IMG/VR virus record: IMGVR_UViG_3300026478_000263
DNA length: 64,000 nt
DNA from: a virus
Lineage: Duplodnaviria; Heunggongvirae; Uroviricota; Caudoviricetes
Reading direction: 5' to 3' (one strand)
Shown: positions 178 to 45,473 of the stretch, piece after piece
How positions within the stretch are numbered: position 1 is the first letter of the stretch
Layout of the letters: the number at the start of each line of letters is the position of its first letter
Position numbers and translations under genes: made by a program
The notes under the pieces: generated by a model
Database searches by the model: none
Told to the model about the DNA's origin: nothing
What the model saw: only the letters and a program-made list of their open reading frames with translations

Positions 178-642
178 ATGAAAAAGGCACTTTTGGCAAT
201 ATCTATGGTAAGTATTCTTTCTGCTTGTTCAAGCATGAAGGAAATTGAAGTCCGTAAAACTGCGGCACACCCAAGTTGGTATGCTGATTGCGAACAACGA
301 GGCAAAGAAGGCTGGTTTTGGGCACGTGAGGGTTATGTCTATTCTTGCGGTATGGGCGAAAGTCGTTACCAGCAAGCATCAGAAGCACAAGCAGATGCCT
401 TTGCATTAGACGGCTTTGCCAAACGCTTAGGTAGTCGAGTCAATTCTTTGACTAAAGTAGAAATTATCGACGAACGAAAGGCTACTCAGACCCGAGTAGA
501 AACATCTACTGGTAACCAATTGATACAAGATCAATTAGAGTCTAAGAAACATCAGTACTCGTTAAACGGACAATATTACACTTATGTTCGTTTGAAAATG
601 ACTGAAGATACTTTCAATCGTCTTAAGGCAAAGGCTCAGTAA
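178..642 (+). CDS. putative lipoprotein
   Basis: N-terminal signal peptide ending in lipobox LSAC; compact ORF. Confidence 0.5.
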   Translation: MKKALLAISMVSILSACSSMKEIEVRKTAAHPSWYADCEQRGKEGWFWAREGYVYSCGMGESRYQQASEAQADAFALDGFAKRLGSRVNSLTKVEIIDERKATQTRVETSTGNQLIQDQLESKKHQYSLNGQYYTYVRLKMTEDTFNRLKAKAQ

Positions 643-980
643 TGACACACCCTTATACAGTTAAGAACTATCTGTGGTTAGCAATAATTGTAATGTTTGT
701 GATTATTGCTCTACTCTCGGGCTGTAGTTCTGCTCCTACTAAAACGGCACAGTTTTGTAACACATCAAAAACTATCGAAGTAGTCGATGGAGCCAATGTG
801 TCTAGCAAAACTACTGTAAGATGCTCCGATGATTTTATTGAACGTCATGTTCCTGCAAGAATTGGCGTAGATCAAAATTGTCGTCCTGTAGTTACACAAT
901 ATGGAAGAAACTATGTTTGCGAAACACATCGTCAAGGTCATTACGTTTACATTTCTGACCCTGCTAATCTGTCAAACTAG
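642..980 (+). CDS. putative lipoprotein/secreted protein
   Basis: N-terminal TM/signal followed by LLSGCSS lipobox; ATGA start overlap with upstream gene. Confidence 0.4.
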   Translation: MTHPYTVKNYLWLAIIVMFVIIALLSGCSSAPTKTAQFCNTSKTIEVVDGANVSSKTTVRCSDDFIERHVPARIGVDQNCRPVVTQYGRNYVCETHRQGHYVYISDPANLSN

Positions 981-22900: not shown

Positions 22901-23188
22901 ATGTCACAAGCACACGTTCAGAAGTTCGAAGCATCTATGTTTGAGTATTGCTCGGACCATGCCGAAAGGGCATACAAGTTATTTGAAGATGGAGAAGTAG
23001 ATGTTGGATTGGAAAGATTAGGCCATTTAGCAGATATACTCCAAATGTTAAAAAGTTCTAAAAGTTCAAACGGAACTATTAACATTAATACATTTGCACA
23101 AGAAGTAAAAGCATTAGATGAAATAGATAAAGATGCCGTATACACACACTTCCAAGAGAACGGCTTTGGACAATATATACCGGAGTGA
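22901..23188 (+). CDS. hypothetical protein
   Basis: ORF downstream of strong promoter; ATGA overlap with clpP. Confidence 0.4.
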   Translation: MSQAHVQKFEASMFEYCSDHAERAYKLFEDGEVDVGLERLGHLADILQMLKSSKSSNGTININTFAQEVKALDEIDKDAVYTHFQENGFGQYIPE

Positions 23189-23748
23189 AAATGAAAAAAA
23201 TTGATGAGTTCAATGCGGAAGATAGAATTGATCTTAGATTACTGGAAAATTCTACTTTTTATTTGAATGGAGAGATAGATGAAGATACAGTAGGCGAAGC
23301 CATCAAATGGATTCTCTATGAAAATTTACAAGGCGAAGGTAGAACTTTGACCTTGTATATTAACAGCACGGGCGGAGATTTGTATCAGGCTCTAGCGTTA
23401 ATTGATGTAATGCGTAGCAGTCCACATATTGTAAGAACTATTGGAATTGGTGCTGTCATGAGTGCGGCATTTTTAATTTTTGCCTGCGGTGATAAAAAGC
23501 ATCGTTATGCGGCTAGTAATACTAGTTTTATGTGTCACCAATTTACATCCGGAATGGATGCTAAGTATCACGACCTAAAAGCAGAAATGAAAGAAACCGA
23601 ATTGTTAAATGAAAAGATGATAACAATTCTAACCGAAACAACAGGCTTGGTTAAAAGTAGAGTTAAAGCAAAACTACTACCAGCCAGCGATGTTTACCTA
23701 ACTGCACAAGAAGTGGTTGACTTTGGGGTAGCGGATCATATAGTATAG
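23185..23748 (+). CDS. clpP: ClpP-family serine protease subunit
   Basis: 187 aa; GIGAVMSAAFLIFACGDKKHRYAASNTSFMCHQ matches ClpP catalytic Ser/His region. Confidence 0.8.
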   Translation: MKMKKIDEFNAEDRIDLRLLENSTFYLNGEIDEDTVGEAIKWILYENLQGEGRTLTLYINSTGGDLYQALALIDVMRSSPHIVRTIGIGAVMSAAFLIFACGDKKHRYAASNTSFMCHQFTSGMDAKYHDLKAEMKETELLNEKMITILTETTGLVKSRVKAKLLPASDVYLTAQEVVDFGVADHIV

Positions 23749-28422: not shown

Positions 28423-28462
28423 ATACACATACAGTAAACAACTAGGCGCAGAAAGGCTAAAG

Positions 28463-30625: not shown

Positions 30626-30626
30626 A

Positions 30627-31424
30627 ATGTTTCCATATTTGATTCAAGGCAAAAATATTGTTGTTGTAATTAACAACAATCCACATACAATTACTTCTAC
30701 TCATATTGCCTATGAGAAAGTCAAAGAAGCAATTAAGACAGGTGACTGGGACACAGTACAGGAAGTAATTGAGCCAAAGAAAATTGTGCTCGAATATGGT
30801 GCTGGTAACATCGCTATCCAAGGAGACAAGTTCTACTGGAAGGGACAAGAGTTCCACAACACATTGGCAGATAGAATTATTTCTATGTACCAAGATGGTT
30901 TCCCAATTGAGCCTATGGTTCAGTTTATGGAGAACTTGATGAGCAACCCAAGTCATCGTGCTGTTACAGAACTGTACAAGTTTTTGGAAAAGGGTAATTT
31001 GCCAATTACCAATGACGGTCACTTCTTGGCATACAAGAAAGTTCGTAAGGACTATAAGGATTGCCACAGTGGTACAATGGATAACTCTGTTGGACAGATT
31101 GTTGAAATGGAGCGCAACCAAGTTGACGACAAGGCCGAAAACACTTGTAGTTCTGGTCTGCACTTCTGCTCACGTGAGTACTTGGACCACTTTGGTGGTG
31201 AACGTACAGTGATCCTTAAGATCAATCCACGTGATGTTGTAAGCATTCCTACTGACTACAATGCGTCTAAGGGTCGTGCTTGCCGCTACGAAGTTATTGG
31301 TGAATTGGGCGTACATCCAGACGATGCTTTCAAAGCACCTGTCCAGGATGAAGCCTACACACAAGAGCAGTTGGATGCCGCTGTTAAGGCCGCAGTCGAT
31401 GCCGCTCTTAAGGTAACACAATGA
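30627..31424 (+). CDS. hypothetical protein
   Basis: AAAGG RBS before ATG at 30627 (internal Met of track ORF 30603). Confidence 0.45.
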   Translation: MFPYLIQGKNIVVVINNNPHTITSTHIAYEKVKEAIKTGDWDTVQEVIEPKKIVLEYGAGNIAIQGDKFYWKGQEFHNTLADRIISMYQDGFPIEPMVQFMENLMSNPSHRAVTELYKFLEKGNLPITNDGHFLAYKKVRKDYKDCHSGTMDNSVGQIVEMERNQVDDKAENTCSSGLHFCSREYLDHFGGERTVILKINPRDVVSIPTDYNASKGRACRYEVIGELGVHPDDAFKAPVQDEAYTQEQLDAAVKAAVDAALKVTQ

Positions 31425-31597
31425 TTAGACTTTGGCTAGTCTTTGCAATCCTTGCCGTCCTGATCCATTTAGGTATTACTACCTGGAGGAAAATGGAGGG
31501 CAAGGAGCGTTGGTCATTGACAAAGTCATTGGCCTATAGTATAATTGTTTCACTGTTAGCACTAATGGTGATGACAGCAATCGTAATTTTATTTTAA
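31421..31597 (+). CDS. small membrane protein (58 aa), not in ORF track
   Basis: MIRLWLVFAILAVLIHLG... two TM helices; ATGA overlap. Confidence 0.3.
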   Translation: MIRLWLVFAILAVLIHLGITTWRKMEGKERWSLTKSLAYSIIVSLLALMVMTAIVILF

Positions 31598-31606
31598 GGA
31601 AAAACA

Positions 31607-32407
31607 ATGAAGCGTATTTTAACTCTCTCTATTCTTGCCGCCGCAGTTTTGGCAACGGGTTGTACTCGTATCGAAACTGGTGAAGTTGGTCTCCGTGTCG
31701 GTTTTGACAAGCAGGTCAAGAATGAGGAATTGCTTCCTGGTTCGTTTAACCAAACTATTATCGGCGATGTACTTACATTCCCAACTAAGGAAATTAGTGT
31801 CAAAGTTGAAGACATGACTCCATTGGCTAAAGATAATAGCACAATGAAGGACTTTGATGCGTTGGTTACTTATAATATCAATCAAGCACAAGTGGCCGAG
31901 ATTTATAATACAAAAAATAAATCATTCCACGCTAGTCATAATGGCGATGTTTACTTGATGTATAATTACATCTTTAATGCTTCACGTAATGCTATCTACA
32001 AAGCCGCACGTAAGTATGAAGCATTGGAAATGGGTGATGCACGTCAAGCAATGGAAACTGAAATCAAAGAACAAGTTACTCGTACACTGGCTGAAGAAAA
32101 GTTGGATGGTACTATTGTAATTGGACAAGTTCTTATTCGTAACATTGTGCCTGCAGACTCTGTTGTAGCCAGCGCCAACGAATTGGTCAAAGCCAAGAAC
32201 GAGTACAAGACCGAAGAAGTCAAAGTTGCTACTGCTAAGAAACGTAACGAATCGATGCAGGCCAATCCGATGGCAATTCCATTGTTGAAGGCGGAGGCAG
32301 AAGCAGAAGCCATGCGTAAGTTGCCCGATGCTATTGCCAACTTCAAAGGTCAAACTTTGGTTATCAACGGTGTTGTAACTCCTACTGTTACTACCAACGG
32401 TAAGTAA
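31607..32407 (+). CDS. SPFH/band-7 (HflK/C-, prohibitin-like) lipoprotein
   Basis: lipobox LATGC; SPFH-like core IETGEVGLRVGFDKQV... with coiled-coil and Ala/Glu-rich tail. Confidence 0.7.
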   Translation: MKRILTLSILAAAVLATGCTRIETGEVGLRVGFDKQVKNEELLPGSFNQTIIGDVLTFPTKEISVKVEDMTPLAKDNSTMKDFDALVTYNINQAQVAEIYNTKNKSFHASHNGDVYLMYNYIFNASRNAIYKAARKYEALEMGDARQAMETEIKEQVTRTLAEEKLDGTIVIGQVLIRNIVPADSVVASANELVKAKNEYKTEEVKVATAKKRNESMQANPMAIPLLKAEAEAEAMRKLPDAIANFKGQTLVINGVVTPTVTTNGK

Positions 32408-32408
32408 T

Positions 32409-32618
32409 ATGTTAAAACGTTTACTTTGGCAACGCAGTGGCGGACATTACCTCTTTTGGCTGTCCGCCATTTATCTAGTAGTTGGCTTTGCTAACATTGC
32501 CTACAAATTTACAGAAGCAGAATACATCCAAATGGTTTGGATTCTTTGCTTAATGATTCCGCTGGTAGTTAAACCCGTAGCACGTTGGCTCAACATGACT
32601 ACAATTTGGGAACGATAA
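32409..32618 (+). CDS. small membrane protein
   Basis: two TM helices; 69 aa. Confidence 0.35.
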   Translation: MLKRLLWQRSGGHYLFWLSAIYLVVGFANIAYKFTEAEYIQMVWILCLMIPLVVKPVARWLNMTTIWER

Positions 32619-32619: not shown

Positions 32620-32693
32620 GCGCTTGAAGCTCAATGGATAGGCAGGGACTTCTAAACTCCCGATAGCAGGTTCGATTCCTGTCTAGCGCACCA
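32620..32693 (+). tRNA. tRNA-like gene with anticodon CTA (amber-suppressor type), slightly non-canonical
   Basis: acceptor GCGCTTG/CTAGCGC (one U-U), D-arm, anticodon stem GGGAC/CTCCC with loop TTCTAAA (CUA), T-arm GCAGG-TTCGATT-CCTGT, discriminator A, encoded CCA. Confidence 0.45.
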
Positions 32694-32714: not shown

Positions 32715-32963
32715 ATGGATATGGATCAGGCGGCAGTATTTTTAGCCGGATCAGTTTTAACAGTTTTAGGATTCTTGATAATCCTAGGCGGTATTCTTAT
32801 CGCTAATAACTTAGTTGCCAAATATTGGAAGTCGTGGGGTTGGTCATGGATGCCACATTGGGCACATGAACCACAACGGTTTATGACACAAGAAGAATCT
32901 GAAAAGATTCCGCCATATATGAAAGACAATCATGGCAAAGAAGAAACAAGCAAAACAGTTTAA
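32715..32963 (+). CDS. small membrane protein
   Basis: N-terminal TM helix, 82 aa. Confidence 0.35.
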   Translation: MDMDQAAVFLAGSVLTVLGFLIILGGILIANNLVAKYWKSWGWSWMPHWAHEPQRFMTQEESEKIPPYMKDNHGKEETSKTV

Positions 32964-34075: not shown

Positions 34076-34615
34076 GTGTTCCATTTTAACAAAAAACACT
34101 TAGAAGATCAGACCATACCTATGTGGGTCTTAAAATTTCATGGGGAGACATTATATGTCAATCACGTAGACTGTACAGTTGCTTGGAGCACCAAGGAAAC
34201 ACCAGACAACAGTCATACAAAAGGTAGCATTAAAGTCAAGAACGTACTATTACGTGTCGACGATGAAAACAATGCTCAAATCTCCGAACTCACGTTAATA
34301 GATAAATTTAGACTACGTAACCAAAAGTTAGGTATTACTAGAATTATGTTTAGACCTCATAGCGAAATGCACAAAGCATTGTTGGCTAACGAATACAAGC
34401 ACGGTCCTATGAAATACATTCAAGGTAGATGTACTAGTACATTTATTATTTGTGATCTTTTGGATAGGAAACAAGTAACGTTCGCCCAACTCAAGTATGA
34501 TGATTGGAGAGAAGTTAAACCAAACGAGTCGTACTACACACAATACGATGACACTAAAGGATCCAATTTACATGTCGACTATGGACACCCAAGTACACCG
34601 TTTGAATATAGTTGA
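34076..34615 (+). CDS. hypothetical protein
   Basis: 179 aa intact ORF. Confidence 0.4.
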   Translation: MFHFNKKHLEDQTIPMWVLKFHGETLYVNHVDCTVAWSTKETPDNSHTKGSIKVKNVLLRVDDENNAQISELTLIDKFRLRNQKLGITRIMFRPHSEMHKALLANEYKHGPMKYIQGRCTSTFIICDLLDRKQVTFAQLKYDDWREVKPNESYYTQYDDTKGSNLHVDYGHPSTPFEYS

Positions 34616-36024: not shown

Positions 36025-36458
36025 TAGGATCAATTATGCTTGATTGTTTAATCCTAGGCGATAGCCTAGCAGTAGGAGTAGGACAAGTTCGTACAGAATG
36101 TGTTACTCGTGCTAAGAGTGGCATTAACAGTTATGACTATGTTAATCGTCATGTGTTACACACTCAGGGCACTACACAGGCAAAAAATGTAATCATTAGT
36201 CTAGGGTCAAACGATACAGCAAAAATAAACACAGTGGAGGAACTAGACAGTCTAAGACAACTAGTAGACGCCACTCGTGTTTATTGGATTGTACCTAATA
36301 TCAAGGACGATAAGAGACGGGCAGTTCTTGCAGTAGCAGAAAAATACAAGGACTTTGTAATAGATGCTAGAAAGCACGAAACTAGCCCGGATCACGTACA
36401 CCCAACTTACAAAGGCTATAAAAGCATAGCCAAAGCAACTAAAGGAGACACACTATGA
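36021..36458 (+). CDS. SGNH/GDSL-like hydrolase (putative)
   Basis: LILGDSLAVGVG N-terminal block typical of the SGNH family; ATGA overlaps on both sides. Confidence 0.4.
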   Translation: MIGSIMLDCLILGDSLAVGVGQVRTECVTRAKSGINSYDYVNRHVLHTQGTTQAKNVIISLGSNDTAKINTVEELDSLRQLVDATRVYWIVPNIKDDKRRAVLAVAEKYKDFVIDARKHETSPDHVHPTYKGYKSIAKATKGDTL

Positions 36459-37815: not shown

Positions 37816-37890
37816 TGTATCCCTAGTGTTAATGGCAGCACGACAGTCTCCAAAACTGCTAGTCGGGGTTCGAGTCCCTGGGGGTACGCC
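37816..37890 (+). tRNA. tRNA-Trp (CCA)
   Basis: acceptor GTATCCC/GGGGTAC, anticodon loop CTCCAAA, T-loop TTCGAGT, CCA encoded. Confidence 0.75.
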
Positions 37891-37895
37891 AATAA

Positions 37896-37973
37896 TGCAA
37901 CGGTGGCAGAGAGGCCCAATGCAACGGATTGCAAATCCGTAAAACCGTCAGTTCAAATCTGACCCGTTGCTCC
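37896..37973 (+). tRNA. tRNA-Cys (GCA)
   Basis: acceptor GCAACGG/CCGTTGC, anticodon arm ACGGA-TTGCAAA-TCCGT, T-arm GTCAG-TTCAAAT-CTGAC. Confidence 0.8.
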
Positions 37974-37981
37974 AGGTTATA

Positions 37982-38071
37982 TCCCCCGTTAGCTCATGGA
38001 GAGCAGGTCGGCTTATAACCGATTAATCTAGATAAGGTCCAGGATGAGGTTCGATTCCTCAACGGGGGACC
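37982..38071 (+). tRNA. class II-like tRNA (90 nt, long variable arm), anticodon loop CTTATAA (formal anticodon TAT) - isotype unresolved
   Basis: acceptor CCCCCGT/ACGGGGG + A + CCA, T-arm TGAGG-TTCGATT-CCTCA, 21-nt variable region. Confidence 0.5.
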
Positions 38072-38243
38072 ATAAGGAGAATATTATGGCAGTACTTGTA
38101 GTGTTAGTTATAATGTTCGTGTTGTATCAAGTTTTGAAAAAATATTAAAAGGAGAGTAGCATGAAACGTGCTAAACGTTAGTGTCACTCTAGATCTCCCG
38201 TATGGTCTAGGGTTGGCACGTAAAATCAAATCAATACGTACAA

Positions 38244-38319
38244 CCCTGTTTAGCGTCAATGGTAGCGCACTTGACTCTTAATCAATGAGGTGTGAGTTCG
38301 AATCTCACAGCAGGGACCA
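38244..38319 (+). tRNA. tRNA-Lys (CTT)
   Basis: anticodon loop CTCTTAA, T-arm GTGAG-TTCGAAT-CTCAC, CCA encoded. Confidence 0.7.
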
Positions 38320-38322
38320 TAT

Positions 38323-38397
38323 GGGGGTATAACTTAATGGTTAAAGTAGCGGGCTTTTAACCCGTAAATCAGAGTTCGATTCTCTGTGCCCCTACCA
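38323..38397 (+). tRNA. tRNA-Lys (TTT)
   Basis: anticodon arm GCGGG-CTTTTAA-CCCGT, T-arm CAGAG-TTCGATT-CTCTG. Confidence 0.8.
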
Positions 38398-38579
38398 TAT
38401 GAAAGCATTCTTAACTGGTCGCATAGCGTCAGTAGTAAGGACGGGCCACCATCTTATGACGAAAAAGGCATAAGAGTGCTTCCATATGGTAGTGTATAAA
38501 AACAAACTAACCACAGCCAGGAACTATAGACTCTGGGTGCATAGCGCATTGTCGTTAGTTTCTTTTTGTATAGTATTAT

Positions 38580-38653
38580 TCCTGGATAGTTAAATGGTAT
38601 AACAATCGGCTGATAACCGGTCATTCTGAGTTCAATTCTCGGTCCAGGAACCA
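38580..38653 (+). tRNA. tRNA-Ile (GAT)
   Basis: perfect acceptor TCCTGGA/TCCAGGA, anticodon loop CTGATAA. Confidence 0.75.
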
Positions 38654-38659
38654 ATTTAC

Positions 38660-38734
38660 ATAGCGTTCGACTTCTGGGGAGGTCATCACCCTTTCAAGGT
38701 GACTAGGCGGGTTCGATCCCCGTACGCTATACCA
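38660..38734 (+). tRNA. tRNA-Glu (TTC)
   Basis: perfect acceptor ATAGCGT/ACGCTAT, anticodon arm TCACC-CTTTCAA-GGTGA. Confidence 0.75.
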
Positions 38735-38819
38735 GAGCAAATAGAGATCTTGTGGGTTCATCCATGTTCTCTCAATGTTTGTTAGTTTCAATGGGTGGTA
38801 TAGAAACTAACACCAATTT

Positions 38820-38894
38820 GGGGGCAGTAGTGGGCTACGGTCTTCCCTTGCAAGGAAGATGTCTAGAAGGATTCGATTTCCTCGGCCTCCACCA
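38820..38894 (+). tRNA. tRNA-Ala (TGC)-like with truncated D-arm
   Basis: acceptor GGGGGCA/GGCCTCC with G3-U70, anticodon arm CTTCC-CTTGCAA-GGAAG; D region only 15 nt, variable 8 nt. Confidence 0.45.
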
Positions 38895-38983
38895 AATTTG
38901 CGACAATGGTGGGTTAACCGGCCTTGCCGGGGCATTCTAGATTACCGCGAAGGTTCGAGTCCTTCGGTCGCAATTATTTTTAT

Positions 38984-39061
38984 CTCTGCGTAATGTCAAT
39001 CTGGTAGACGGCCTGATCTGGAGTCAGGAGGCTGTACGTTCGAATCGTACCGTGGAGACCA
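38984..39061 (+). tRNA. tRNA-Pro (TGG)-like (C33 in anticodon loop)
   Basis: anticodon arm CCTGA-TCTGGAG-TCAGG, T-arm GTACG-TTCGAAT-CGTAC, CCA encoded. Confidence 0.5.
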
Positions 39062-39066
39062 ATTTT

Positions 39067-39141
39067 GCCCTTGTATCCTTAGTGGTAGAGGTCCTGTTTT
39101 GTAAGCAGGGTGTGGTGGTTCGATTCCATCCTGGGGCACCA
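39067..39141 (+). tRNA. tRNA-Thr (TGT), second copy
   Basis: anticodon arm CCTGT-TTTGTAA-GCAGG, T-arm GGTGG-TTCGATT-CCATC. Confidence 0.6.
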
Positions 39142-39367
39142 AGTTTTGTAAGTGTCAGCAAGAGAATGTCACGCTATTGTAGGTAAGTTCGAACTACCTT
39201 AATAGTAAAAGGGGACGGGTTCAACTCCCGGGGGATCGGAAGATCCCTGCAGATTGGTTGCTAACTGGACTAGTATCCCAAGTGACGTACCGAGTCCCAG
39301 CCGGCTTTATATACATGGGTGAATGGTTGCTATAACGATGGGGCAACTACTTACAAATTCAATCTGT

Positions 39368-39441
39368 TGGCCTATGGTGTAATGGTAACACAACTGACTT
39401 TGACTCAGTCGTTCCAGGTTCGAGTCCTGGTAGGCCTGCCA
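39368..39441 (+). tRNA. tRNA-Gln (TTG)
   Basis: anticodon arm ACTGA-CTTTGAC-TCAGT, discriminator G, weak 1-72 pair as in bacterial tRNA-Gln. Confidence 0.7.
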
Positions 39442-39448
39442 ATTTTAA

Positions 39449-39525
39449 CGGTCCTTAACTCAATGGATTAGAGTGCCAGTCTTCGAAACTGGAGGTTGGG
39501 AGTTCGAGTCTCTCAGGGCCGGCCA
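39449..39525 (+). tRNA. tRNA-Arg (TCG)
   Basis: anticodon arm CCAGT-CTTCGAA-ACTGG, D-stem ACTC/GAGT. Confidence 0.75.
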
Positions 39526-39527
39526 AT

Positions 39528-39602
39528 GGTGTTGCTAGTGTAGTGGTCCGCACGGCTGTCTGTGAAACAGTAAGGCAGGGTTCGATTCCCGGCTTCACCC
39601 CA
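39528..39602 (+). tRNA. tRNA-His (GTG) with G-1
   Basis: anticodon arm GCTGT-CTGTGAA-ACAGT, extra 5' G pairing with C73, two U-U mismatches in acceptor stem. Confidence 0.6.
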
Positions 39603-39608
39603 AATATC

Positions 39609-39684
39609 GCCGCTTTAGCAAATGTGGTCATTGCACCGGTTTGAAGCACCGAGGAACTTGGTTCGATCCCAAGGGGCGGCACCA
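39609..39684 (+). tRNA. tRNA-Phe (GAA)
   Basis: anticodon loop TTGAAGC, T-arm CTTGG-TTCGATC-CCAAG. Confidence 0.75.
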
Positions 39685-39691
39685 TAATTAT

Positions 39692-39768
39692 GCCCTTGTA
39701 CGCTAATTGGTAATGCGAATGGATTTAAAATCCGTTGTGTGTAGGTTCGAATCCAACCAAGGGTACCA
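39692..39768 (+). tRNA. type-I (short variable arm) tRNA with anticodon TAA (Leu codon UUA) - atypical
   Basis: anticodon arm ATGGA-TTTAAAA-TCCGT, 5-nt variable loop, discriminator A, CCA encoded. Confidence 0.55.
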
Positions 39769-39769
39769 T

Positions 39770-39841
39770 GCCTCTGCTGATGGAGCAGTGCCAGGTCTTC
39801 TAAACCAGGTTATAGTAGTTCGAATCTACTCAGAGGCGCCA
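39770..39841 (+). tRNA. tRNA-Arg (TCT)-like, short D-arm
   Basis: perfect acceptor GCCTCTG/CAGAGGC, anticodon loop CTTCTAA, T-arm AGTAG-TTCGAAT-CTACT; 72 nt. Confidence 0.5.
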
Positions 39842-39843
39842 AG

Positions 39844-39917
39844 GCTCTTGTAGGTAAATGGTATACCAGTGTCTTGGTACGACACAATCGAAAGTTCGAT
39901 TCTTTCCTTGAGCACCA
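39844..39917 (+). tRNA. tRNA-Thr (GGT)
   Basis: anticodon arm GTGTC-TTGGTAC-GACAC; two U-U mismatches in acceptor. Confidence 0.65.
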
Positions 39918-39922
39918 GATAT

Positions 39923-40000
39923 ACCCCTGTGGACAAATTGGTAAAGTCGTCTCTCTCAAAAGGAGAAGTTCTCTCCGTTCGAATCGGAGCAGGGGTACCA
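39923..40000 (+). tRNA. type-I tRNA with anticodon CAA (Leu codon UUG) - atypical
   Basis: perfect acceptor ACCCCTG/CAGGGGT, anticodon arm TCTCT-CTCAAAA-GGAGA, 6-nt variable loop, discriminator A. Confidence 0.55.
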
Positions 40001-40046
40001 CATTTGTAGCAGATTCTATCTACAACGAATTATACAAGTAAAACAA

Positions 40047-40136
40047 CGAAGCGTGGCAGAGTCCGGTTTATTGCACCTGTCTTGAAAACAGACGATCCGA
40101 AAGGGTCCGTGAGTTCGAATCTCACCGCTTCGGCCA
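40047..40136 (+). tRNA. tRNA-Ser (TGA)
   Basis: class II, perfect acceptor CGAAGCG/CGCTTCG, anticodon loop CTTGAAA, long variable arm GATCC-GAAA-GGGTC. Confidence 0.8.
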
Positions 40137-40143
40137 AAAGGTG

Positions 40144-40172
40144 TTGACTTGTTTAACAGTTGATCGTATAAT
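40144..40172 (+). promoter_or_regulatory. sigma70 promoter TTGACT-17-TATAAT inside tRNA array
   Basis: consensus hexamers 9 nt upstream of tRNA-Ser(GCT). Confidence 0.55.
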
Positions 40173-40180
40173 ACAAATAT

Positions 40181-40275
40181 AGTGAGTTGGCCGAGCTGGT
40201 CGAAGGCACCTTCCTGCTAAGAAGGCATTCCTGCAAAAACGGGGATCAAGGGTTCGAATCCCTTACTCACTGCCA
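40181..40275 (+). tRNA. tRNA-Ser (GCT)
   Basis: class II, perfect acceptor AGTGAGT/ACTCACT, anticodon arm CCTTC-CTGCTAA-GAAGG. Confidence 0.8.
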
Positions 40276-40282
40276 AAATGTC

Positions 40283-40311
40283 TTGACTAGTTTCTAAAGT
40301 TCATATACAAT
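40283..40311 (+). promoter_or_regulatory. sigma70 promoter TTGACT-17-TACAAT inside tRNA array
   Basis: consensus hexamers upstream of tRNA-Tyr. Confidence 0.5.
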
Positions 40312-40362
40312 AGAGACTAGTTAAGAAATTAACCTAGTTCTTTAAAAATTTCAAGCAGATAT

Positions 40363-40448
40363 GGATGTGTAGGAAAATTGGTAACCCCAGTGGACTGTAA
40401 ATCCGCCGCCTTACGGCACTGCTGGTTCGACTCCAGCCGCATCCACCA
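40363..40448 (+). tRNA. tRNA-Tyr (GTA)
   Basis: class II, anticodon arm GTGGA-CTGTAAA-TCCGC, T-arm GCTGG-TTCGACT-CCAGC. Confidence 0.75.
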
Positions 40449-41093
40449 TTAAGAAATAGCATTGACGGGTATCGTCTATGGACGCATAGACTTATGAAGG
40501 ATAAGGCCATCTTACCCTTCTGAGAAAACCGTGAACAATGGCTTATGAGGAGAATCGAACTCCACTCAGAAATACGTTTCATCCCATAGGGTGTAATGTT
40601 ATTTTTTAATGGTAAAAATTTAAGGGTAGTTTATTATCCTGTTGGCGGTTCGCCGTTGACGAAGAATAAGTTGAGTGATCAACCCAAAGGAGGTAAGCCT
40701 ACGCAACTCCGCCAGTAATGGTTCATGTAAACAAGCCTGCTCACTACCGCGAGGTAGCGTTCACTGAGAAGACCGGTGGATGTAACAATGAAGCAAGTGT
40801 TAGGGAAAGAATGTGTATCGACTGGCCCGCAAGGGAACCAGGGTGCATGAAAAGTAACGGGTGGTGCTGACTTCCTAACAAAACCAACTTGCGAATTGGT
40901 ATGAGAAAGGGTAGTGTATTTGTCCAAGGGGTCGCTCCTAAGGGCTTGTATGCAATATTAATGGTTAGTGGACTGTTTTGATGCAGGACATTGATCGTGA
41001 AATATCACTGAGTAGTCCGCGAGACAAAAGGTATGTGGTGAGTTGTATTCAGTAATCCAAAAGGTTATTGAGCAACAGAGGCAGCTCATCGCG

Positions 41094-41169
41094 GTAGGTT
41101 TGATATAGCGTAATGGTAACGCAATTGCCTCTTAAGCAATGGACTGTTGGTTCGATCCCAACTATCGAT
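41094..41169 (+). tRNA. tRNA-Lys(CTT)-like, defective acceptor stem, no CCA (possible pseudo-tRNA)
   Basis: D-arm GCG-TAATGGTAA-CGC, anticodon arm ATTGC-CTCTTAA-GCAAT, T-arm GTTGG-TTCGATC-CCAAC; 5' acceptor pairs poorly. Confidence 0.3.
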
Positions 41170-41588
41170 TATAAAATGCAAAGACTGCCTCGGTCATATG
41201 TGAAAAGCATCTAATACTCGAGCCGCAAGGTAATCGAGTCAGACGTAGCTCGCAAGGTGAAATCTGTTTATGCTGGAAGTTTCGTAAGTGGTTAGCGCCG
41301 CTGAATGGCTCGCAAGGTCAACGGAGTAGATAGCGTAGAATAGCATATGGCGACAAGACTACTGCCTGTCTTTAAAAACGGCGATGCTGATAGTGGACAT
41401 AGGTACAGTAATGGCTTATGTGGATGTCTAGAGAAGGTTGGCTCGCAAGGCTGACTATAATGCTAGAGGCACTATTGGCTAACGTATAATCTCAGCGTTA
41501 GCACTATTCTAAAACACATTAGCTCGAACCGAATAACGGCATTATAAATGCTTCTGGTAGTTGGTTAGTGTGTTTCAGAATAGAATTT

Positions 41589-41665
41589 GCACCGTTAGCT
41601 CAGTTGGTCAGAGCGCCGGCCTGTCACGTCGGAGGCCAGGGGTTCAAGTCCCCTACGGTGCGCCA
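41589..41665 (+). tRNA. tRNA-Asp (GTC)
   Basis: perfect acceptor, anticodon loop CTGTCAC identical to the E. coli tRNA-Asp loop. Confidence 0.85.
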
Positions 41666-41679
41666 AGATAACTATTAAT

Positions 41680-42483
41680 ATGAAAACACTTTTAATTTTA
41701 GGAGATTGCCAAAGTAATGGCAATAATTGTTTGGCTGGTGACATAGTCAACGACGATGCTCCGAGGACTTGGAGTCTACGTTTCCATAATGATTTTAGAA
41801 GTGTTTTTAAATGGTATCTAAAACATAGAAAAGAAAACAATGTTACAACACCTATGCCCAATGGCAATATGGAAAATGTTGTTTGGCATTATCTATGGGA
41901 AGAAGAACAAAAAGCCGCATGGCCTAATTTCTTAAATGTTTCCAATGTAGTTAATATATCTATTAACGGTGGACATTTTATAGGTCATCACAAAAGATTA
42001 AAACAGTACCTAGCAGAGAATCCTAAACCGGATCATGTATTAGTTACAGATTACACGTTTAGTCATATAGCACACAGTTTCAAATATAACAATCAACGAT
42101 ATGTATTTGAACGTGAAAATTATGTAGACGGAGAATGGAATCCAGATAGATATCCAATTGAAGTTCATAAAAAGCGATTAAACGGTATTGCTTTTCAAAA
42201 AAGTCAAAGCAAAGATTGGCATATTCGTAGACATAGAAATGGTTACAATATGTTAATTAAGTTTTTAGATTCTCAAAATATTAAATGGACGACTGTTAGG
42301 TTTGGAGATCCTAATCCTGACAACTCAGAAATTTTTAAAGAGTTTATGCACACTGGTATAGATTGTACTGAATACGGAAAACAGTATATGAGTGCTAATG
42401 GTGAGAATGCAAAAATTAAATTGTCTGTGCAAGAAAAAATTGCAACGACAATTCAGGAATACTTAAATAGTATTGTCAGTTAA
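41680..42483 (+). CDS. SGNH/GDSL-like hydrolase (putative) embedded in tRNA array
   Basis: N-terminal LILGDCQSNGNN resembles the GDS(L) block; 267 aa intact ORF. Confidence 0.4.
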   Translation: MKTLLILGDCQSNGNNCLAGDIVNDDAPRTWSLRFHNDFRSVFKWYLKHRKENNVTTPMPNGNMENVVWHYLWEEEQKAAWPNFLNVSNVVNISINGGHFIGHHKRLKQYLAENPKPDHVLVTDYTFSHIAHSFKYNNQRYVFERENYVDGEWNPDRYPIEVHKKRLNGIAFQKSQSKDWHIRRHRNGYNMLIKFLDSQNIKWTTVRFGDPNPDNSEIFKEFMHTGIDCTEYGKQYMSANGENAKIKLSVQEKIATTIQEYLNSIVS

Positions 42484-42484
42484 T

Positions 42485-42568
42485 GCCCTGGTGGTGGAAT
42501 GGTAGACACGCTGGTCTTAGAAGCCAGTGGCGAGAGCCGTGAGAGTTCGAGTCTCTCCTGGGGCACCA
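42485..42568 (+). tRNA. tRNA-Leu (TAG)
   Basis: class II with 13-nt variable arm, anticodon arm CTGGT-CTTAGAA-GCCAG. Confidence 0.8.
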
Positions 42569-42574
42569 AAATAT

Positions 42575-42650
42575 GCGGGTGAAGTGTTTGTGGTTACACG
42601 TCAGTCTTCCAAACTGAAATAGACGAGTTCAACTCTCGCCTCCCGCTCCA
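42575..42650 (+). tRNA. tRNA-Gly (TCC)
   Basis: anticodon arm TCAGT-CTTCCAA-ACTGA; U-U at 6-67. Confidence 0.7.
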
Positions 42651-42655
42651 TCATT

Positions 42656-42732
<77 letters not shown>

Positions 42733-42742
42733 ATGTTAGTTT

Positions 42743-42817
42743 GCCTGGTTAGCTCAGTGGTAGAGCGTCTCGTTTACACCGAGAGGGTCGGCAGTTCGAA
42801 ACTGTCACCAGGTACCA
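42743..42817 (+). tRNA. tRNA-Val (TAC)
   Basis: anticodon arm TCTCG-TTTACAC-CGAGA. Confidence 0.8.
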
Positions 42818-42824
42818 AGTTTAT

Positions 42825-42900
42825 TCCCTAGTAGCTCAGCGGTAGTAGCACCTGACTGTTAATCAGGGTGTCGGTGGTTCGATCCCACCCTGGGGAGCCA
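42825..42900 (+). tRNA. tRNA-Asn (GTT)
   Basis: anticodon arm CCTGA-CTGTTAA-TCAGG. Confidence 0.8.
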
Positions 42901-42906
42901 AGTAAT

Positions 42907-42982
42907 GCACGGTTCGTCTATCGGTTTAGGACACTGGCCTTTCACGTCAGTAAGACGGGTTCGATTCCCGTACCGTGTACCA
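42907..42982 (+). tRNA. tRNA-Glu (TTC), second copy
   Basis: anticodon loop CTTTCAC as in E. coli tRNA-Glu. Confidence 0.75.
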
Positions 42983-43030
42983 TATATGGCCTTTGGATAA
43001 GTTATAAACTTTGCCTTAGGTTCTTCATAT

Positions 43031-43106
43031 GCGGGAGTAGCTCAGTTGGTAGAGCATTACCTTGCCAAGGTAAATGTCGCGAGTTCGAACCTCGTCTCCC
43101 GCTCCA
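43031..43106 (+). tRNA. tRNA-Gly (GCC)
   Basis: perfect acceptor GCGGGAG/CTCCCGC, anticodon arm TTACC-TTGCCAA-GGTAA. Confidence 0.85.
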
Positions 43107-43172
43107 GTTTTGCCAAAAGGCATTGATTTAGATTTAAAAGATTGTATAATAGAAACATTAAAGGAAAAACAA

Positions 43173-43745
43173 ATGAATATCTCCCTACGTAAGGCAAATG
43201 CACTTCAGAACAGTATCAACGATACCGTCAAAGGTTTCCAGTTTGAGACCACAGTAAAAATCAACGAGTTCCAAGAAGCGGAACAAGAAATTTCCAAAGT
43301 TGCAGGAACACTCTGCGACAACCTTACACGCAGAGATGCGTTAGTGGAAGCACTTTACGAGATTCGTAAAAGTGTCAGCGGTGCTAACACAGAAGTTAGA
43401 ATCGACACTAGATTGGCCGATGTTGCACATCTAGAAAAACAAATCCAATTCTACAACGGATTGGCTAGTAAGACCGTTCGCGAAAGCGCAAAGGTTGTAG
43501 CAGGTCGTTTGGACAAGATCCGTAACGACAAAAGCGAAAACCGTCGTAGCATCTATGGCTACAACGACACAGTAGACACTAGTGTGCTCACTCGTGAAGA
43601 TCTAGACGGATTCCGTCGTAGAGTGGCAACTGCTAAAAAGCAGAAACAAAAACTTCAGGATGAAATCCTAGAGTTAAATGTTCAGACAACTATCCAATTG
43701 TCTGACAAAACAGAAGCAGTTCTGCAAGCAGAAGGTTTACTGTAA
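43173..43745 (+). CDS. hypothetical coiled-coil protein
   Basis: AAAGGAAAAAC RBS then ATG at 43173 (track ORF 43074 N-terminus overlaps tRNA-Gly and was trimmed). Confidence 0.4.
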   Translation: MNISLRKANALQNSINDTVKGFQFETTVKINEFQEAEQEISKVAGTLCDNLTRRDALVEALYEIRKSVSGANTEVRIDTRLADVAHLEKQIQFYNGLASKTVRESAKVVAGRLDKIRNDKSENRRSIYGYNDTVDTSVLTREDLDGFRRRVATAKKQKQKLQDEILELNVQTTIQLSDKTEAVLQAEGLL

Positions 43746-44082
43746 CAGACCCCGCGTTAACTCAGCGTGATAGAGTTAGGTAATTGCTACACCTTAATGG
43801 CTCGGTGCATTGGATCTACCGCAAGGCTTGTTTAAAGCGACTTGAGAAATCACAAAGGCGGACCTCAGCACCGTCTAAATGGAAAGGCTAGTGGACAGAG
43901 TAACAGCTCGGTTTAGGGCTCCTGTGGTGGGAGTGGCTAGACACTTTATAAATGCTCTCTGAGCTGAACTACACTGGATAACACGAGTTAGGTGCTAAGT
44001 CGACTACCCACCGAAAGTGCCAGGAAGATAAGGAGCTCAGCAGGTTTCGTTCGAGTCGAACAGAGAGCACCTATAAAGTTAT

Positions 44083-44156
44083 CGCGGGATAGAGAAACGG
44101 TAACTCAAGAGTCTCATAAGCTCTAGATCCTGGTTCGATTCCAGGTCCCGCAACCA
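44083..44156 (+). tRNA. tRNA-Met (CAT) with C1-A72 mismatch (initiator-like acceptor end)
   Basis: begins CGCGGGA, ends TCCCGCAACCA as in bacterial tRNA-fMet; anticodon loop CTCATAA. Confidence 0.65.
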
Positions 44157-44695
44157 AGTTTTGGCAAAGGCGAAAGCCCGAGCCTGGAGTAGAGAAGGAG
44201 ATTAGGATAGACAGACTTAGGCTACATGCCTAAGGTTTGATCTCTTATAGAGACCGAACATCAACTACTGGCAAAACGTCTTGAAAACGTTTCGTGCTTG
44301 TGTGAACCAGTTCTATATATTAATCGACTTTGTGAGTTGCTAACTGGAAATATACAGGTCCCTGTGCTTTGCGCCTTGTGACTTGTTAAGGGTATCTTTA
44401 TAGAGCCCGCTTGTACATTGTCCAGTCTATTACTTGCCTTTCTCTCTCCACCCCTTTTATTAGTAAGTAGTTAAGGTTCTAAAAGCATCCGCAAGGAGTT
44501 AACAAAGATCGGAAGTTTTTGTTAATTGAAGTTATAAACTTTAATGCTGTAGAGTATATGTATCAAGCGCCGGTGCAAGGTGAGCGGATTGAGACTACAA
44601 GAACTTCATGTTGGGCTAGACAAAGAGAGGGACGAATCGCACCGTCGGATGGCCTTACCCAAACCAAAACTCTCGGGACATCTTACTAATAATCT

Positions 44696-44770
44696 GGTAA
44701 CGTAGCATAATGGTCGTGCACCTCCTTCATACGGAGCAAGGTGTGAGTTCGAATCTCACCGTTACCACCA
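44696..44770 (+). tRNA. tRNA-Met/Ile2 (CAT), second CAT tRNA
   Basis: perfect acceptor GGTAACG/CGTTACC, anticodon loop TTCATAC. Confidence 0.7.
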
Positions 44771-44793
44771 TAACACCATAATCTGCCCACTAA

Positions 44794-45249
44794 ATGCTAA
44801 ATAGTTATATGCTAACATTAATCAGAGAAACTACTAATCCATTACTTGACTATATCAAGGATGATCCAGTACGTCCAGAAATTCCCAAAGAATTTCGTGT
44901 TAGCGGTAGCAGATTTGTCGCCACCACTGTAGAAGGCGAAAAACCACGTGCAATGGTCTGTGTTAGTCTGCACGATTTTGTGCCAACAACTGTTGAAGAT
45001 TTGGCTAAAACACCCACAGAACCAACTACAGCAATCTTCTATACAATTTGGAGTTATGCGCCGGGTGCGGCCGCAGAGCTACTTTTTGGTGTAGTGGATC
45101 AAATAAAAGAACTTTTCCCAACTGTTAATCGTTTTGTAACACTTAGCCCAAAAACTGAAATGGCCTACAAGTTCCATATCAGAAATGGTGCCTGTGTGTT
45201 GCAAGAAAACGACAACACAGTGAACTACGAATACCTCATAACCCGTTGA
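44794..45249 (+). CDS. hypothetical protein
   Basis: 151 aa ORF between tRNA genes. Confidence 0.4.
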   Translation: MLNSYMLTLIRETTNPLLDYIKDDPVRPEIPKEFRVSGSRFVATTVEGEKPRAMVCVSLHDFVPTTVEDLAKTPTEPTTAIFYTIWSYAPGAAAELLFGVVDQIKELFPTVNRFVTLSPKTEMAYKFHIRNGACVLQENDNTVNYEYLITR

Positions 45250-45280
45250 CAAACTGCTGAAAAGGTTATATACTTAGTAT

Positions 45281-45388
45281 GTGACCGTGAGCGAATAGGC
45301 AGAGCTCCAGGACTGTTGTGAAACACTCCGTGGGTCGGGACTAGGCGATATGCCGTCCTTGGAGGTTCGAACCCTCCCGGTCACACCA
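45281..45388 (+). ncRNA. 108-nt tRNA-like RNA (canonical acceptor/T-arm/CCA, non-canonical 72-nt core)
   Basis: perfect 7-bp acceptor GTGACCG/CGGTCAC + A + CCA and T-arm GGAGG-TTCGAAC-CCTCC, but no standard D/anticodon arms could be folded. Confidence 0.4.
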
Positions 45389-45398
45389 AATTCCCTCC

Positions 45399-45473
45399 CT
45401 CGCTATAGTTCAATGGATAGAACGACTCTCTCCTAAAGAGTAAGTCTACGTTCGATTCGTAGTAGCGGGACCA
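45399..45473 (+). tRNA. tRNA-Arg (CCT)
   Basis: anticodon arm ACTCT-CTCCTAA-AGAGT, T-arm CTACG-TTCGATT-CGTAG. Confidence 0.8.

What the first reader, a model, noticed from the sequence alone, without database searches (positions are those of the whole stretch)
32620..32693. Solitary tRNA-like gene with CUA anticodon (amber-suppressor type)
A 74-nt cloverleaf lies between two small membrane-protein genes. It has a good T-arm (TTCGATT), encoded CCA and discriminator A. Its anticodon loop TTCTAAA places CUA at positions 34-36, so it would read UAG. Minor defects are a U-U in the acceptor stem, a 3-bp D-stem and C-C at 31-39. It could be a functional nonsense suppressor or a decaying tRNA. If functional, it might enable read-through of host or phage UAG stops; the gene at 642-980 ends in UAG. 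Suppressor tRNAs are known in some large phages.
Basis: seen in the sequence. Interest (0 to 1): 0.7.

Follow-up and report, generated by a model that had tools for sequence, protein, structure and literature searches.

The report
Phage amber-suppressor tRNA gene
A jumbo phage from freshwater carries a real tRNA gene whose anticodon reads the UAG stop codon; it belongs to a widespread phage-only tRNA family, a kind of gene already reported in the related phage XacN1, and its target is still unknown.

Summary
ARAGORN and the Rfam tRNA model (38.4 bits, cut-off 29) both call a 74-nt tRNA at 32620-32693 (+) with anticodon CUA at 32652-32654. The listed defects are real: U6·U67, C13·A22 and C31·C39.

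It is not a one-off decaying copy. It belongs to a tRNA(CUA) family with 72 unique sequences in viral and metagenome contigs. The stems covary. Every member found without reference to the anticodon has CUA. The family is absent from 185,579 bacterial species genomes. The exact window allele recurs in seven independent assemblies.

The closest cultured relative, Xanthomonas jumbo phage XacN1, carries two annotated tRNA-Sup(CUA) genes near its Band-7 gene and tmRNA. Its authors found no read-through target.

I found no sign of TAG recoding in the window, around family loci, or in about 1 Mb of capsid regions of XacN1-like phages. TAG ends only 2 of about 75 window genes.

One unreported feature: 86% of family members have a 3-4 bp anticodon stem, with 27:43 and/or 31:39 unpaired.

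Verdict: a probably functional amber suppressor, a new member of a known kind. Its biological role and inserted amino acid are unresolved.

The parts
32620..32693 (+). tRNA gene with anticodon CUA (amber-suppressor type), 74 nt, CCA encoded
   Evidence: ARAGORN; Rfam RF00005 38.4 bits with the CUA register; member of a covarying tRNA(CUA) family; identical allele in 7 other assemblies
32652..32654 (+). anticodon C34-U35-A36 inside the loop UUCUAAA (32650-32656)
   Evidence: The loop is flanked by the unpaired C31 (32649) and C39 (32657).
32409..32618 (+). 69-aa membrane ORF that stops 1 nt before the tRNA. It is a truncated copy of a ~155-aa gene that sits upstream of the tRNA(CUA) in L052 and L166.
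   Evidence: The exact protein is found on at least 24 contigs.
32715..32963 (+). 82-aa membrane ORF downstream of the tRNA
   Evidence: no Pfam or PHROG match
31607..32407 (+). SPFH/Band-7 lipoprotein gene upstream. XacN1 also has a Band-7 gene 4 kb upstream of its tRNA-Sup pair.
   Evidence: Pfam PF01145, E 4.8e-16; XacN1 annotation
31517..31545 (+). perfect sigma-70-type promoter consensus (TTGACA-17-TATAAT) that could drive SPFH, the 69-aa ORF and the tRNA
   Evidence: consensus scan only; inferred, not shown
37817..45473 (+). main tRNA cluster of the phage (30 tRNA genes). It holds no second stop-codon-reading tRNA.
23185..23748 (+). ClpP-like protease gene, one of only two clear window genes ending in TAG. 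The TAG is followed at once by TGA.
642..980 (+). 112-aa lipoprotein-like gene ending in TAG. Read-through would add 17 residues up to a TGA.

Best explanation
The locus is an intact, phage-encoded elongator-type tRNA whose anticodon CUA pairs cognately with UAG. After a host synthetase charges it, it would compete with release factor 1 and insert an amino acid at amber codons.

The inserted amino acid is unknown. Lys or Gln are the usual fates of CUA tRNAs in proteobacteria.

It is one allele of a phage-restricted tRNA(CUA) family common in freshwater relatives of XacN1-type jumbo phages. These phages use the standard code and rarely use TAG as a stop, so suppression costs the phage little.

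The payoff is not identified. The leading candidates are tolerance of a rare and dangerous stop codon, which is the step that Borges et al. place before recoding, or read-through of host UAG stops or of a few phage UAG stops outside the window.

Shown: the gene, its register, family conservation with covariation, restriction to phages, and absence of recoding in the sequence available. Inferred: expression, charging, suppression and role.
For: - Two independent tRNA finders agree on the gene and on CUA at positions 34-36.
- A scan blind to the anticodon (T-arm plus 3' acceptor strand) found that every IMG/VR tRNA with the family's GCGYYNR acceptor has CUA. The other hits are unrelated Gly, Met, Lys or type-II tRNAs.
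- The family has 72 unique CUA sequences. Pairs 28:42, 29:41 and 30:40 are 100% paired with 2-5 pair types, and acceptor pairs 4:69, 5:68 and 6:67 covary.
- On a gapless 36-sequence alignment, 91.3% of cells are paired, 11 pairs change on both sides, and the covariation score is 0.284 against at most 0.068 for slid partners. None of 500 shuffles reached the observed values.
- Other members score 42.7-62.6 bits on Rfam.
- The family pattern gave one hit in 185,579 bacterial species genomes, and that hit is a tRNA-Arg(UCU).
- The exact window allele, U6·U67 included, is found in 7 other assemblies whose flanks differ by up to 3.8%.
- L084 keeps 96% tRNA identity in otherwise unrelated flanks.
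- The upstream gene is truncated while the tRNA is intact.
- XacN1 has two annotated tRNA-Sup(CUA) genes in a similar neighbourhood.
- TAG ends 2 of about 75 window genes against 22 for TGA, although the TAG and TGA trinucleotides are equally common (1016 v 1069).
Against: - The window allele has the weakest structure in the family: three non-Watson-Crick positions, 38.4 bits, and a folding z-score of only -0.89.
- There are no data on expression or aminoacylation.
- No target was found. There is no in-frame TAG in conserved genes, and genes ending in TAG show no shortened read-through tails in relatives.
- TAG is still used as a genuine stop by at least two window genes.
- No parent isoacceptor could be named, so the amino acid is a guess.
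Confidence: 0.7

Rival explanations
1. This copy is a decaying pseudogene of the family. The family is functional, but the window allele has picked up disabling mismatches (U6·U67, C13·A22, C31·C39, 4-nt variable loop) and no longer works.
For: It has the lowest Rfam score of the family members tested (38.4 against 42.7-62.6). U6·U67 is seen in only 2 of 72 unique sequences. The adjacent gene is truncated, so the locus has suffered a deletion.
Against: The allele is identical in 7 other assemblies with diverged flanks. Its subtype shows a compensatory G28-C42 to A28-U42 change in L089. A non-Watson-Crick 31:39 is the rule in the family (50 of 72). A second lineage (L311) also carries U6·U67 in an otherwise well-paired tRNA. 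The deletion spared the tRNA to the base.
Confidence: 0.12
2. The phage is TAG-recoded (code-15-like). The tRNA exists to decode in-frame TAG codons in late structural or lysis genes that lie outside this 64-kb window.
For: This is the commonest documented use of phage tRNA(CUA) (Borges et al. preprint; PMC13037316). Recoding is typically confined to late genes, and the window holds early and middle functions such as rIIA/B, ligases and tRNAs. TAG is rare as a stop here.
Against: Reading TAG as sense gives no ORF-coverage gain beyond the TGA and TAA controls in the window or in 36 family loci. Fifty-three capsid-region loci of XacN1-like phages (about 1 Mb) are 93% covered by standard-code ORFs. 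TAG as sense adds 2%, and all 80 capsid genes matched essentially full length, from residue 8 or earlier to residue 441 or later of 463. XacN1 itself uses the standard code, with MS-verified virion proteins and 18 TAG stops. The ClpP-like gene ends TAG-TGA, a genuine stop. The capsid loci could not be tied to genomes that carry this tRNA.
Confidence: 0.07
3. It is really a tRNA-Arg(UCU) read in a shifted register (loop CUUCUAA), so it decodes AGA and is not a stop-codon reader.
For: The best GenBank DNA matches are tRNA-Arg(UCU) genes of Otagovirus phages at 81%. The string CUUCUAA is present. In the L089 allele both registers give 4 base pairs.
Against: The shifted register removes nucleotide 26 and leaves only 3 pairs in the window allele (read from the sequence). 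ARAGORN and Infernal both choose CUA, Infernal with high posterior probability. The rest of the family has unambiguous CUCUAAA or UUCUAAA loops centred on CUA. The window already has a normal tRNA-Arg(UCU) at 39770-39841. The similarity to Arg is no better than to Phe, Ile or Gly tRNAs.
Confidence: 0.04
4. It has a non-decoding role. It could be a decoy or substitute substrate for host tRNA-targeting defences (anticodon nucleases), or a competitor that occupies ribosomes paused at UAG, acting alongside the phage's tmRNA and RNA ligase.
For: The phage invests in tRNA and ribosome rescue: a two-piece tmRNA at about 26.5 kb and a T4 Rnl1-like RNA ligase at 47513-48463. XacN1's suppressor pair lies 1 kb from its tmRNA. 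The family has unusual anticodon arms.
Against: There is no direct evidence. Strict conservation of CUA, U33, A37 and a full aminoacyl-acceptor end with CCA points to ordinary decoding.
Confidence: 0.05

Closest known systems
tRNA-Sup(CUA) genes of Xanthomonas jumbo phage XacN1 (AP018399; PMC5852040)
   Same: Both are jumbo phages with about 30 tRNAs plus a tmRNA, and XacN1 is the nearest cultured relative by rIIA. Both have a CUA anticodon, an encoded CCA and a loop of the form YUCUAAA. Both lie downstream of a Band-7/SPFH gene. Both phages use the standard code, with TAG a rare stop and no target identified. XacN1's 17-nt anticodon arm is identical to that of family member L103.
   Different: The acceptor, D and T arms are unrelated to the window family. 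XacN1 has two tandem copies inside a long terminal repeat. XacN1's copies are unpaired at both 27:43 and 31:39, whereas the window copy is unpaired only at 31:39. No cultured phage in GenBank carries the window's GCG-type family.
Suppressor tRNAs of stop-codon-recoded phages (crAss-like, Lak, Agate and others; Borges et al.)
   Same: They are phage-encoded tRNA(CUA) genes, presumed to be charged by host enzymes. Suppressor acquisition by standard-code phages with a depleted TAG stop is described as the step before recoding.
   Different: Those phages have in-frame TAG in late genes and low standard-code coding density, and some encode RF2 or a synthetase. None of this was seen here.
Laboratory amber suppressors (E. 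coli supE/supF/Su7, T4 psu1+)
   Same: The predicted mechanism is the same: a cognate CUA anticodon competes with RF1. The A37-A38 loop context matches the efficient-suppressor context (from my own knowledge; related references are listed in PMC13092985).
   Different: Those arise by single mutations of sense tRNAs and keep 5-bp anticodon stems. This is a long-lived natural lineage with no identifiable sense parent.
Short-anticodon-stem stop-codon readers (4-bp-stem tRNA-Trp(CCA) of Blastocrithidia, ciliates and some bacteria; PMC13092985)
   Same: A shortened anticodon stem is associated with reading stop codons. In that bacterial survey 94.2% of tRNAs have 5-bp stems, 5.6% have 4-bp stems and 0.2% have other lengths. 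In this family the split is 14%, 42% and 44%.
   Different: Those tRNAs are near-cognate and unpaired at the top of the stem. The window tRNA is fully cognate to UAG and unpaired at the bottom (31:39). Any functional link is my inference.

Membership tests
Canonical elongator tRNA (Rfam RF00005) | Score above the curated threshold, full-length match to the cloverleaf model | tested here: met
   38.4 bits against 29, model positions 1-71 of 71
Canonical elongator tRNA (Rfam RF00005) | 7-nt anticodon loop with U33 and purine 37; G18G19; T-loop TTCRAnY; 7-bp acceptor stem plus discriminator | tested here: met
   Loop UUCUAAA, GG in the D-loop, UUCGAUU, discriminator A73 and CCA. There are three non-standard pairs: 6:67, 13:22 and 31:39.
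Phage amber-suppressor tRNA (tRNA-Sup-CUA) | CUA at positions 34-36 in the structurally supported register | tested here: met
   ARAGORN and Infernal agree. The alternative UCU register is worse.
Phage amber-suppressor tRNA (tRNA-Sup-CUA) | The anticodon is conserved among homologues while the stems covary, so it is a lineage and not a chance mutant | tested here: met
   72 unique CUA sequences. An anticodon-blind scan gives only CUA for this acceptor type. Covariation was counted.
Phage amber-suppressor tRNA (tRNA-Sup-CUA) | Actual aminoacylation and read-through of UAG | not testable with these tools
   Needs tRNA-seq or a reporter assay
tRNA-Pyl (ARAGORN's label) | 6-bp anticodon stem, 3-nt variable loop, small D-loop without G18G19, one nucleotide between the acceptor and D stems (feature list from my own knowledge) | tested here: not met
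   The window tRNA has a 4-bp-plus-mismatch anticodon stem, a 4-nt variable loop, GG in a 7-nt D-loop and two nucleotides (AA) at positions 8-9. ARAGORN names any CUA tRNA 'Pyl'.
Stop-codon-recoded (code 15) phage system | In-frame TAG in conserved genes, with ORF coverage rising specifically when TAG is read as sense | tested here: not met
   Tested in the window, family loci and XacN1-like capsid loci. The late genes of this very genome were not available.
Stop-codon-recoded (code 15) phage system | Accessory code-change genes (RF2, a dedicated synthetase) near the tRNA | tested here: inconclusive
   None of the 26 window proteins scanned against PHROGs or Pfam is a release factor or synthetase. 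Not every ORF was scanned.
Blastocrithidia-like short-stem stop readers | 4-bp anticodon stem unpaired at the top (27:43), 7-nt loop, near-cognate anticodon | tested here: not met
   The window tRNA has G27-C43 paired, is unpaired at 31:39, and its anticodon is cognate. Forty-four of 72 family members are unpaired at 27:43.

The most novel reading that the evidence does not exclude
The shortened anticodon stem of this phage tRNA(CUA) family is a selected decoding device and not tolerated sloppiness. The core is 3 bp, 27:43 and/or 31:39 are non-Watson-Crick in 86% of unique members, and 31:39 is never G-C or C-G. The device could raise competitiveness against RF1, allow C34·A wobble so that UAA is read as well as UAG, or steer charging towards LysRS. 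On this reading, standard-code jumbo phages deliberately loosen termination in the infected cell. That would be a natural bacterial-virus counterpart of the short-stem stop-codon readers of trypanosomatids and ciliates.
Probability: 0.2. Interest if true: 0.7.

Novelty: new member of a known kind. Interest (0 to 1): 0.42.

Why it matters
Suppressor tRNAs in phages that keep the standard code are an acknowledged loose end. The XacN1 authors could not find a target, and Borges et al. treat such phages as possible intermediates on the way to recoding.

This locus adds a large, uncultured, phage-only tRNA(CUA) lineage from lakes, with many natural variants: paired against unpaired 6:67, 27:43 and 31:39. 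That makes the question testable by expressing the alleles with amber and ochre reporters and identifying the inserted residue.

If the short anticodon stem proves functional, it would link phage suppressors to the newly recognised short-stem mechanism of stop-codon reading. If not, this is an ordinary accessory tRNA.

Tried and rejected
- **Synteny.** Eighty IMG/VR loci share the SPFH gene at 66-95% aa identity, but only L052 has the tRNA nearby. The SPFH gene with its small upstream partner is a mosaic module in otherwise unrelated contexts, so absence there says little.
- **Origin from tRNA-Arg(UCU) by a 1-nt loop deletion.** Rejected. The observed stems are in register for a 7-nt loop and not for the 6-nt loop such a deletion would leave. 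Similarity to Arg tRNAs is no better than to Phe, Ile, Gly or Met tRNAs, and my locus set was biased towards that T-arm. XacN1's copies resemble tRNA-Lys slightly more, which is not decisive.
- **Tandem-stop protection after TAG.** One case in the window (TAGTGA). There is no trend in relatives: the median extension after TAG is 10 codons, against 9 after TAA and 6 after TGA.
- **In-frame TAG in relatives by tblastn.** I counted 19 TAG, 18 TGA and 3 TAA. Nearly all lie in spurious overlapping frames or near the termini of alignments.
- **The in-frame ORF upstream of the RNA ligase** (47321-47473, with two TAGs before 47513). Rejected as a fusion. The ligase profile match starts at the annotated N-terminus and the upstream ORF looks non-coding.
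- **Linking capsid loci to tRNA-bearing contigs.** No contig appeared to be shared, by eye from the contig names.
- **Single-sequence folding.** The minimum-free-energy fold is not the cloverleaf and is not significant (z -0.89). This is usual for tRNAs and uninformative.

Full report
**1. What is there**

The window is part of an uncultured jumbo-phage genome with 41% G+C. It has no near-identical GenBank phage. Its rIIA protein (28394-30625) is most similar, at 29.5% identity, to that of Xanthomonas jumbo phage XacN1. rIIB follows at 30603-31424.

ARAGORN finds 33 tRNA genes and a permuted tmRNA. Rfam confirms them and adds a GOLLD RNA.

The finding's gene is real:
- ARAGORN calls 32620-32693 (+), 74 nt, anticodon cta.
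- Rfam's tRNA model matches end to end at 38.4 bits (threshold 29). Its alignment places UUCUAAA in the loop with high posterior probability.
So are the 4-nt variable loop, the UUCGAUU T-loop, discriminator A and the encoded CCA.
- ARAGORN's 'tRNA-Pyl' label is only its name for CUA. The pyrrolysine tRNA hallmarks are absent.

**2. It is a member of a family and not an accident**

An exact-pattern scan of IMG/VR for TCTAAA, a spacer and this T-arm returned 89 loci. ARAGORN labelled 47 of the matches tRNA(cta) and 29 tRNA-Arg(UCU). A few of the cta calls proved to be Arg(UCU) read in a shifted register and were excluded.

That pattern forces the anticodon, so I repeated the scan with only the T-arm and the 3' acceptor strand. 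Every tRNA with the family's GCGYYNR...YNRRCGC-A acceptor had CUA, including three with loop UUCUAAC that the first pattern had missed. The remaining hits were plainly different tRNAs: Gly-UCC, Met, Lys and type II.

The first pattern, extended with the 3' acceptor strand, was then scanned against two further collections:
- JGI/ENA metagenome contigs gave 108 more loci. They include two contigs with the exact window allele.
- 185,579 bacterial and archaeal species genomes gave a single hit, a tRNA-Arg(UCU).

The lineage is therefore phage-restricted as far as these collections show. No cultured phage in GenBank carries it.

**3. Covariation**

Across 72 unique CUA sequences:
- acceptor pairs 4:69, 5:68 and 6:67 show 3-5 standard pair types at 96-100% pairing
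- anticodon-stem pairs 28:42, 29:41 and 30:40 are always paired, with 5, 4 and 2 types

On a gapless alignment of the 36 members of the 75-nt class:
- the cloverleaf has 91.3% of cells paired
- 11 pairs change on both sides
- the covariation score is 0.284, against at most 0.068 when partners are slid
- no shuffle out of 500 reaches the observed values

The T-arm and G1-C2-G3 are invariant by construction of the search and carry no weight. Other members score 42.7-62.6 bits on Rfam. The window subtype is the weakest.

**4. Is the window copy alive?**

Against:
- It has the lowest score.
- Its U6·U67 is seen in only 2 of 72 unique sequences.

For:
- The identical 74-nt allele occurs in seven other assemblies (L327, L338, L389-L393). 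Their flanks differ from the window by 0 to 3.8%.
- The exact 69-aa upstream ORF is indexed in 58 blocks of the assembly collection, and 24 contigs carrying it were read. This is an abundant natural population and not an assembly oddity.
- L084 and L083 keep 96-98% tRNA identity, although the only other similarity in their flanks is a gene at about 71% nucleotide identity. Their differences restore G6-C67.
- L089 differs by a compensatory G28-C42 to A28-U42 change.
- The upstream ORF (32409-32618, 69 aa) is a truncated copy of a ~155-aa gene that precedes the tRNA in L052 and L166. A deletion removed half of that gene and stopped one base short of the tRNA.

I put the pseudogene reading at about 0.12.

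**5. The register question**

The string CUUCUAA is also present, and the best GenBank DNA matches are Otagovirus tRNA-Arg(UCU) genes at 81%.

In the UCU register the window tRNA would lack nucleotide 26 and keep only three anticodon-stem pairs. The CUA register gives four. Both programs choose CUA. The rest of the family is unambiguous. A normal tRNA-Arg(UCU) already exists at 39770-39841.

The resemblance to Arg tRNAs is no stronger than to Phe, Ile, Gly or Met tRNAs in my T-arm-biased locus set. I name no parent isoacceptor.

**6. What is it for?**

I tested the recoding idea in four ways.
- **Window.** Long standard-code ORFs fill the window. Reading TAG as sense joins no credible gene halves. 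The one in-frame candidate, upstream of the RNA ligase, does not look coding.
- **Family loci.** In 36 family loci of at least 5 kb, TAG as sense gains no more ORF coverage than the TGA or TAA controls.
- **Relatives.** tblastn of window proteins against all relatives shows no TAG-specific in-frame stops.
- **Late-gene regions of the wider XacN1-like group.** Using XacN1's major capsid protein I fetched 80 capsid-region loci. The 53 loci of at least 8 kb have a median 93% ORF coverage in the standard code. TAG as sense adds 2.0%, TGA 2.8% and TAA 5.1%. I could not tie these loci to genomes that carry the tRNA, so this is population-level evidence only.

XacN1 itself uses the standard code, with mass-spectrometry-confirmed virion proteins. 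It carries two tRNA-Sup(CUA) genes per terminal repeat. Its authors found nothing behind its 18 TAG stops.

In the window, TAG ends only two convincing genes, against 22 ending in TGA and 45 in TAA. The TAG and TGA trinucleotides are equally frequent overall. The two genes are:
- 642-980, where read-through adds 17 residues
- the ClpP-like 23185-23748, which ends TAGTGA

Relatives use TAG for 5-7% of stops and show no shortened read-through tails.

The picture fits the state Borges et al. describe as preceding recoding: a rare stop codon plus an acquired suppressor. It does not reveal a target.

**7. An unreported family feature**

The ends of the anticodon stem are usually unpaired.

| Set | 27:43 non-standard | 31:39 non-standard |
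|---|---|---|
| 72 unique family members | 61% | 69% |
| 699 other unique tRNAs in the same loci | 11.6% | 4.6% |

At 31:39 the family shows C·A 31, A·C 17, C·C 2 and U·G 13. It never shows G-C or C-G. Stem lengths are 3 bp in 32 members, 4 bp in 30 and 5 bp in 10. A survey of 1.7 million bacterial tRNAs reports 94.2% with 5 bp, 5.6% with 4 bp and 0.2% with other lengths (PMC13092985).

That paper, and earlier E. coli work it cites, link unpaired anticodon stems to stop-codon read-through and to C·A wobble by a CUA suppressor. Fukunaga et al. showed that the 31-39 pair shifts amber suppressors between LysRS and GlnRS. Strong C31-G39 disfavours Lys.

The window tRNA shares the bottom mismatch (C31·C39) but has G27-C43 paired. 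Whether these features tune efficiency, codon range or charging is my inference. I give it as the novel case at 0.2.

Position 8 is A in 47 of 72 members. It is T in 589 of the 699 other unique tRNAs from the same loci.

**8. Context**

- A perfect sigma-70 consensus promoter at 31517-31545 precedes the SPFH gene, the 69-aa ORF and the tRNA. This is a consensus match only.
- XacN1 also has a Band-7 gene 4 kb upstream of its suppressor pair and a tmRNA 1 kb downstream.
- The window encodes a T4 Rnl1-like RNA ligase beside the tRNA cluster.
- The tRNA(CUA) is often followed directly by one of three unannotated genes. One of them, c0, is at 34076-34615 in the window. I could not assign it a function.

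**9. Verdict**

The 'functional suppressor' reading is favoured (0.7) over decay, mis-registration or recoding.

This kind of gene is already documented in the nearest cultured relative and in other large phages, so it is a new member of a known kind. The added value is a large natural allelic series and a distinctive anticodon-stem architecture, both of which make the open question experimentally approachable.

Noticed in passing
window 41035-41498 (+): A GOLLD RNA (RF02032, 207 bits, full length) with a tRNA-Lys(CUU) gene (41098-41171) nested inside it, within the tRNA cluster.
   Followed up: no
window 26466-26929 (+): A phage-encoded two-piece (permuted) tmRNA matching both the permuted and the betaproteobacterial models. 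The predicted tag is unusually long: ANASTFEYFTVEGFTADNGLVAA. Relatives (L010, L026, L072) and XacN1 also carry tmRNAs, with shorter tags.
   Followed up: partly
window 37817-45473 (+), and 37983-38072: A cluster of 30 tRNA genes. No tRNA-Ala was called anywhere in the window. One gene is a 90-nt 'tRNA-Ile(UAU)' at 37983-38072, whose length suggests an insertion or intron.
   Followed up: no
window 47513-48463 (+): A T4 Rnl1-like RNA ligase (phrog_562, E 2.8e-50) right after the tRNA cluster. This suggests tRNA repair against host anticodon nucleases. An ATP-dependent DNA ligase lies at 58876-60198.
   Followed up: no
window 31421-32407 (+), and loci L003-L082: The SPFH/Band-7 lipoprotein gene and its small upstream membrane gene form a two-gene module. 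It is conserved at up to 95% aa identity in 80 viral contigs whose surrounding genes are mostly unrelated to the window, which looks like a mobile or mosaic cassette.
   Followed up: partly
[not shown]
   Followed up: yes
window 34751-35311 (+): A phage-encoded protein with a signal-peptide-like N-terminus and a weak match to the outer-membrane beta-barrel domain (PF13505, E 1e-5, below the curated cut-off).
   Followed up: no
window 23185-23751 (+): The ClpP-like protease gene ends with the tandem stop TAG-TGA. It is one of only two clear TAG terminators in the window.
   Followed up: partly
L173 (XacN1) 36047-36205, and L103: XacN1's two suppressor tRNAs have the same 17-nt anticodon arm (AGAGC-CUCUAAA-ACUCC) as IMG/VR family member L103, although their acceptor, D and T arms differ. 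This suggests either arm exchange or strong convergent constraint.
   Followed up: partly
L100, L146, L147, L150 (IMG/VR loci): ARAGORN labels these tRNAs 'cta', but a clean 5-bp stem gives loop CUUCUAA, so they are tRNA-Arg(UCU). Suppressor calls made by ARAGORN alone can be register artefacts.
   Followed up: yes
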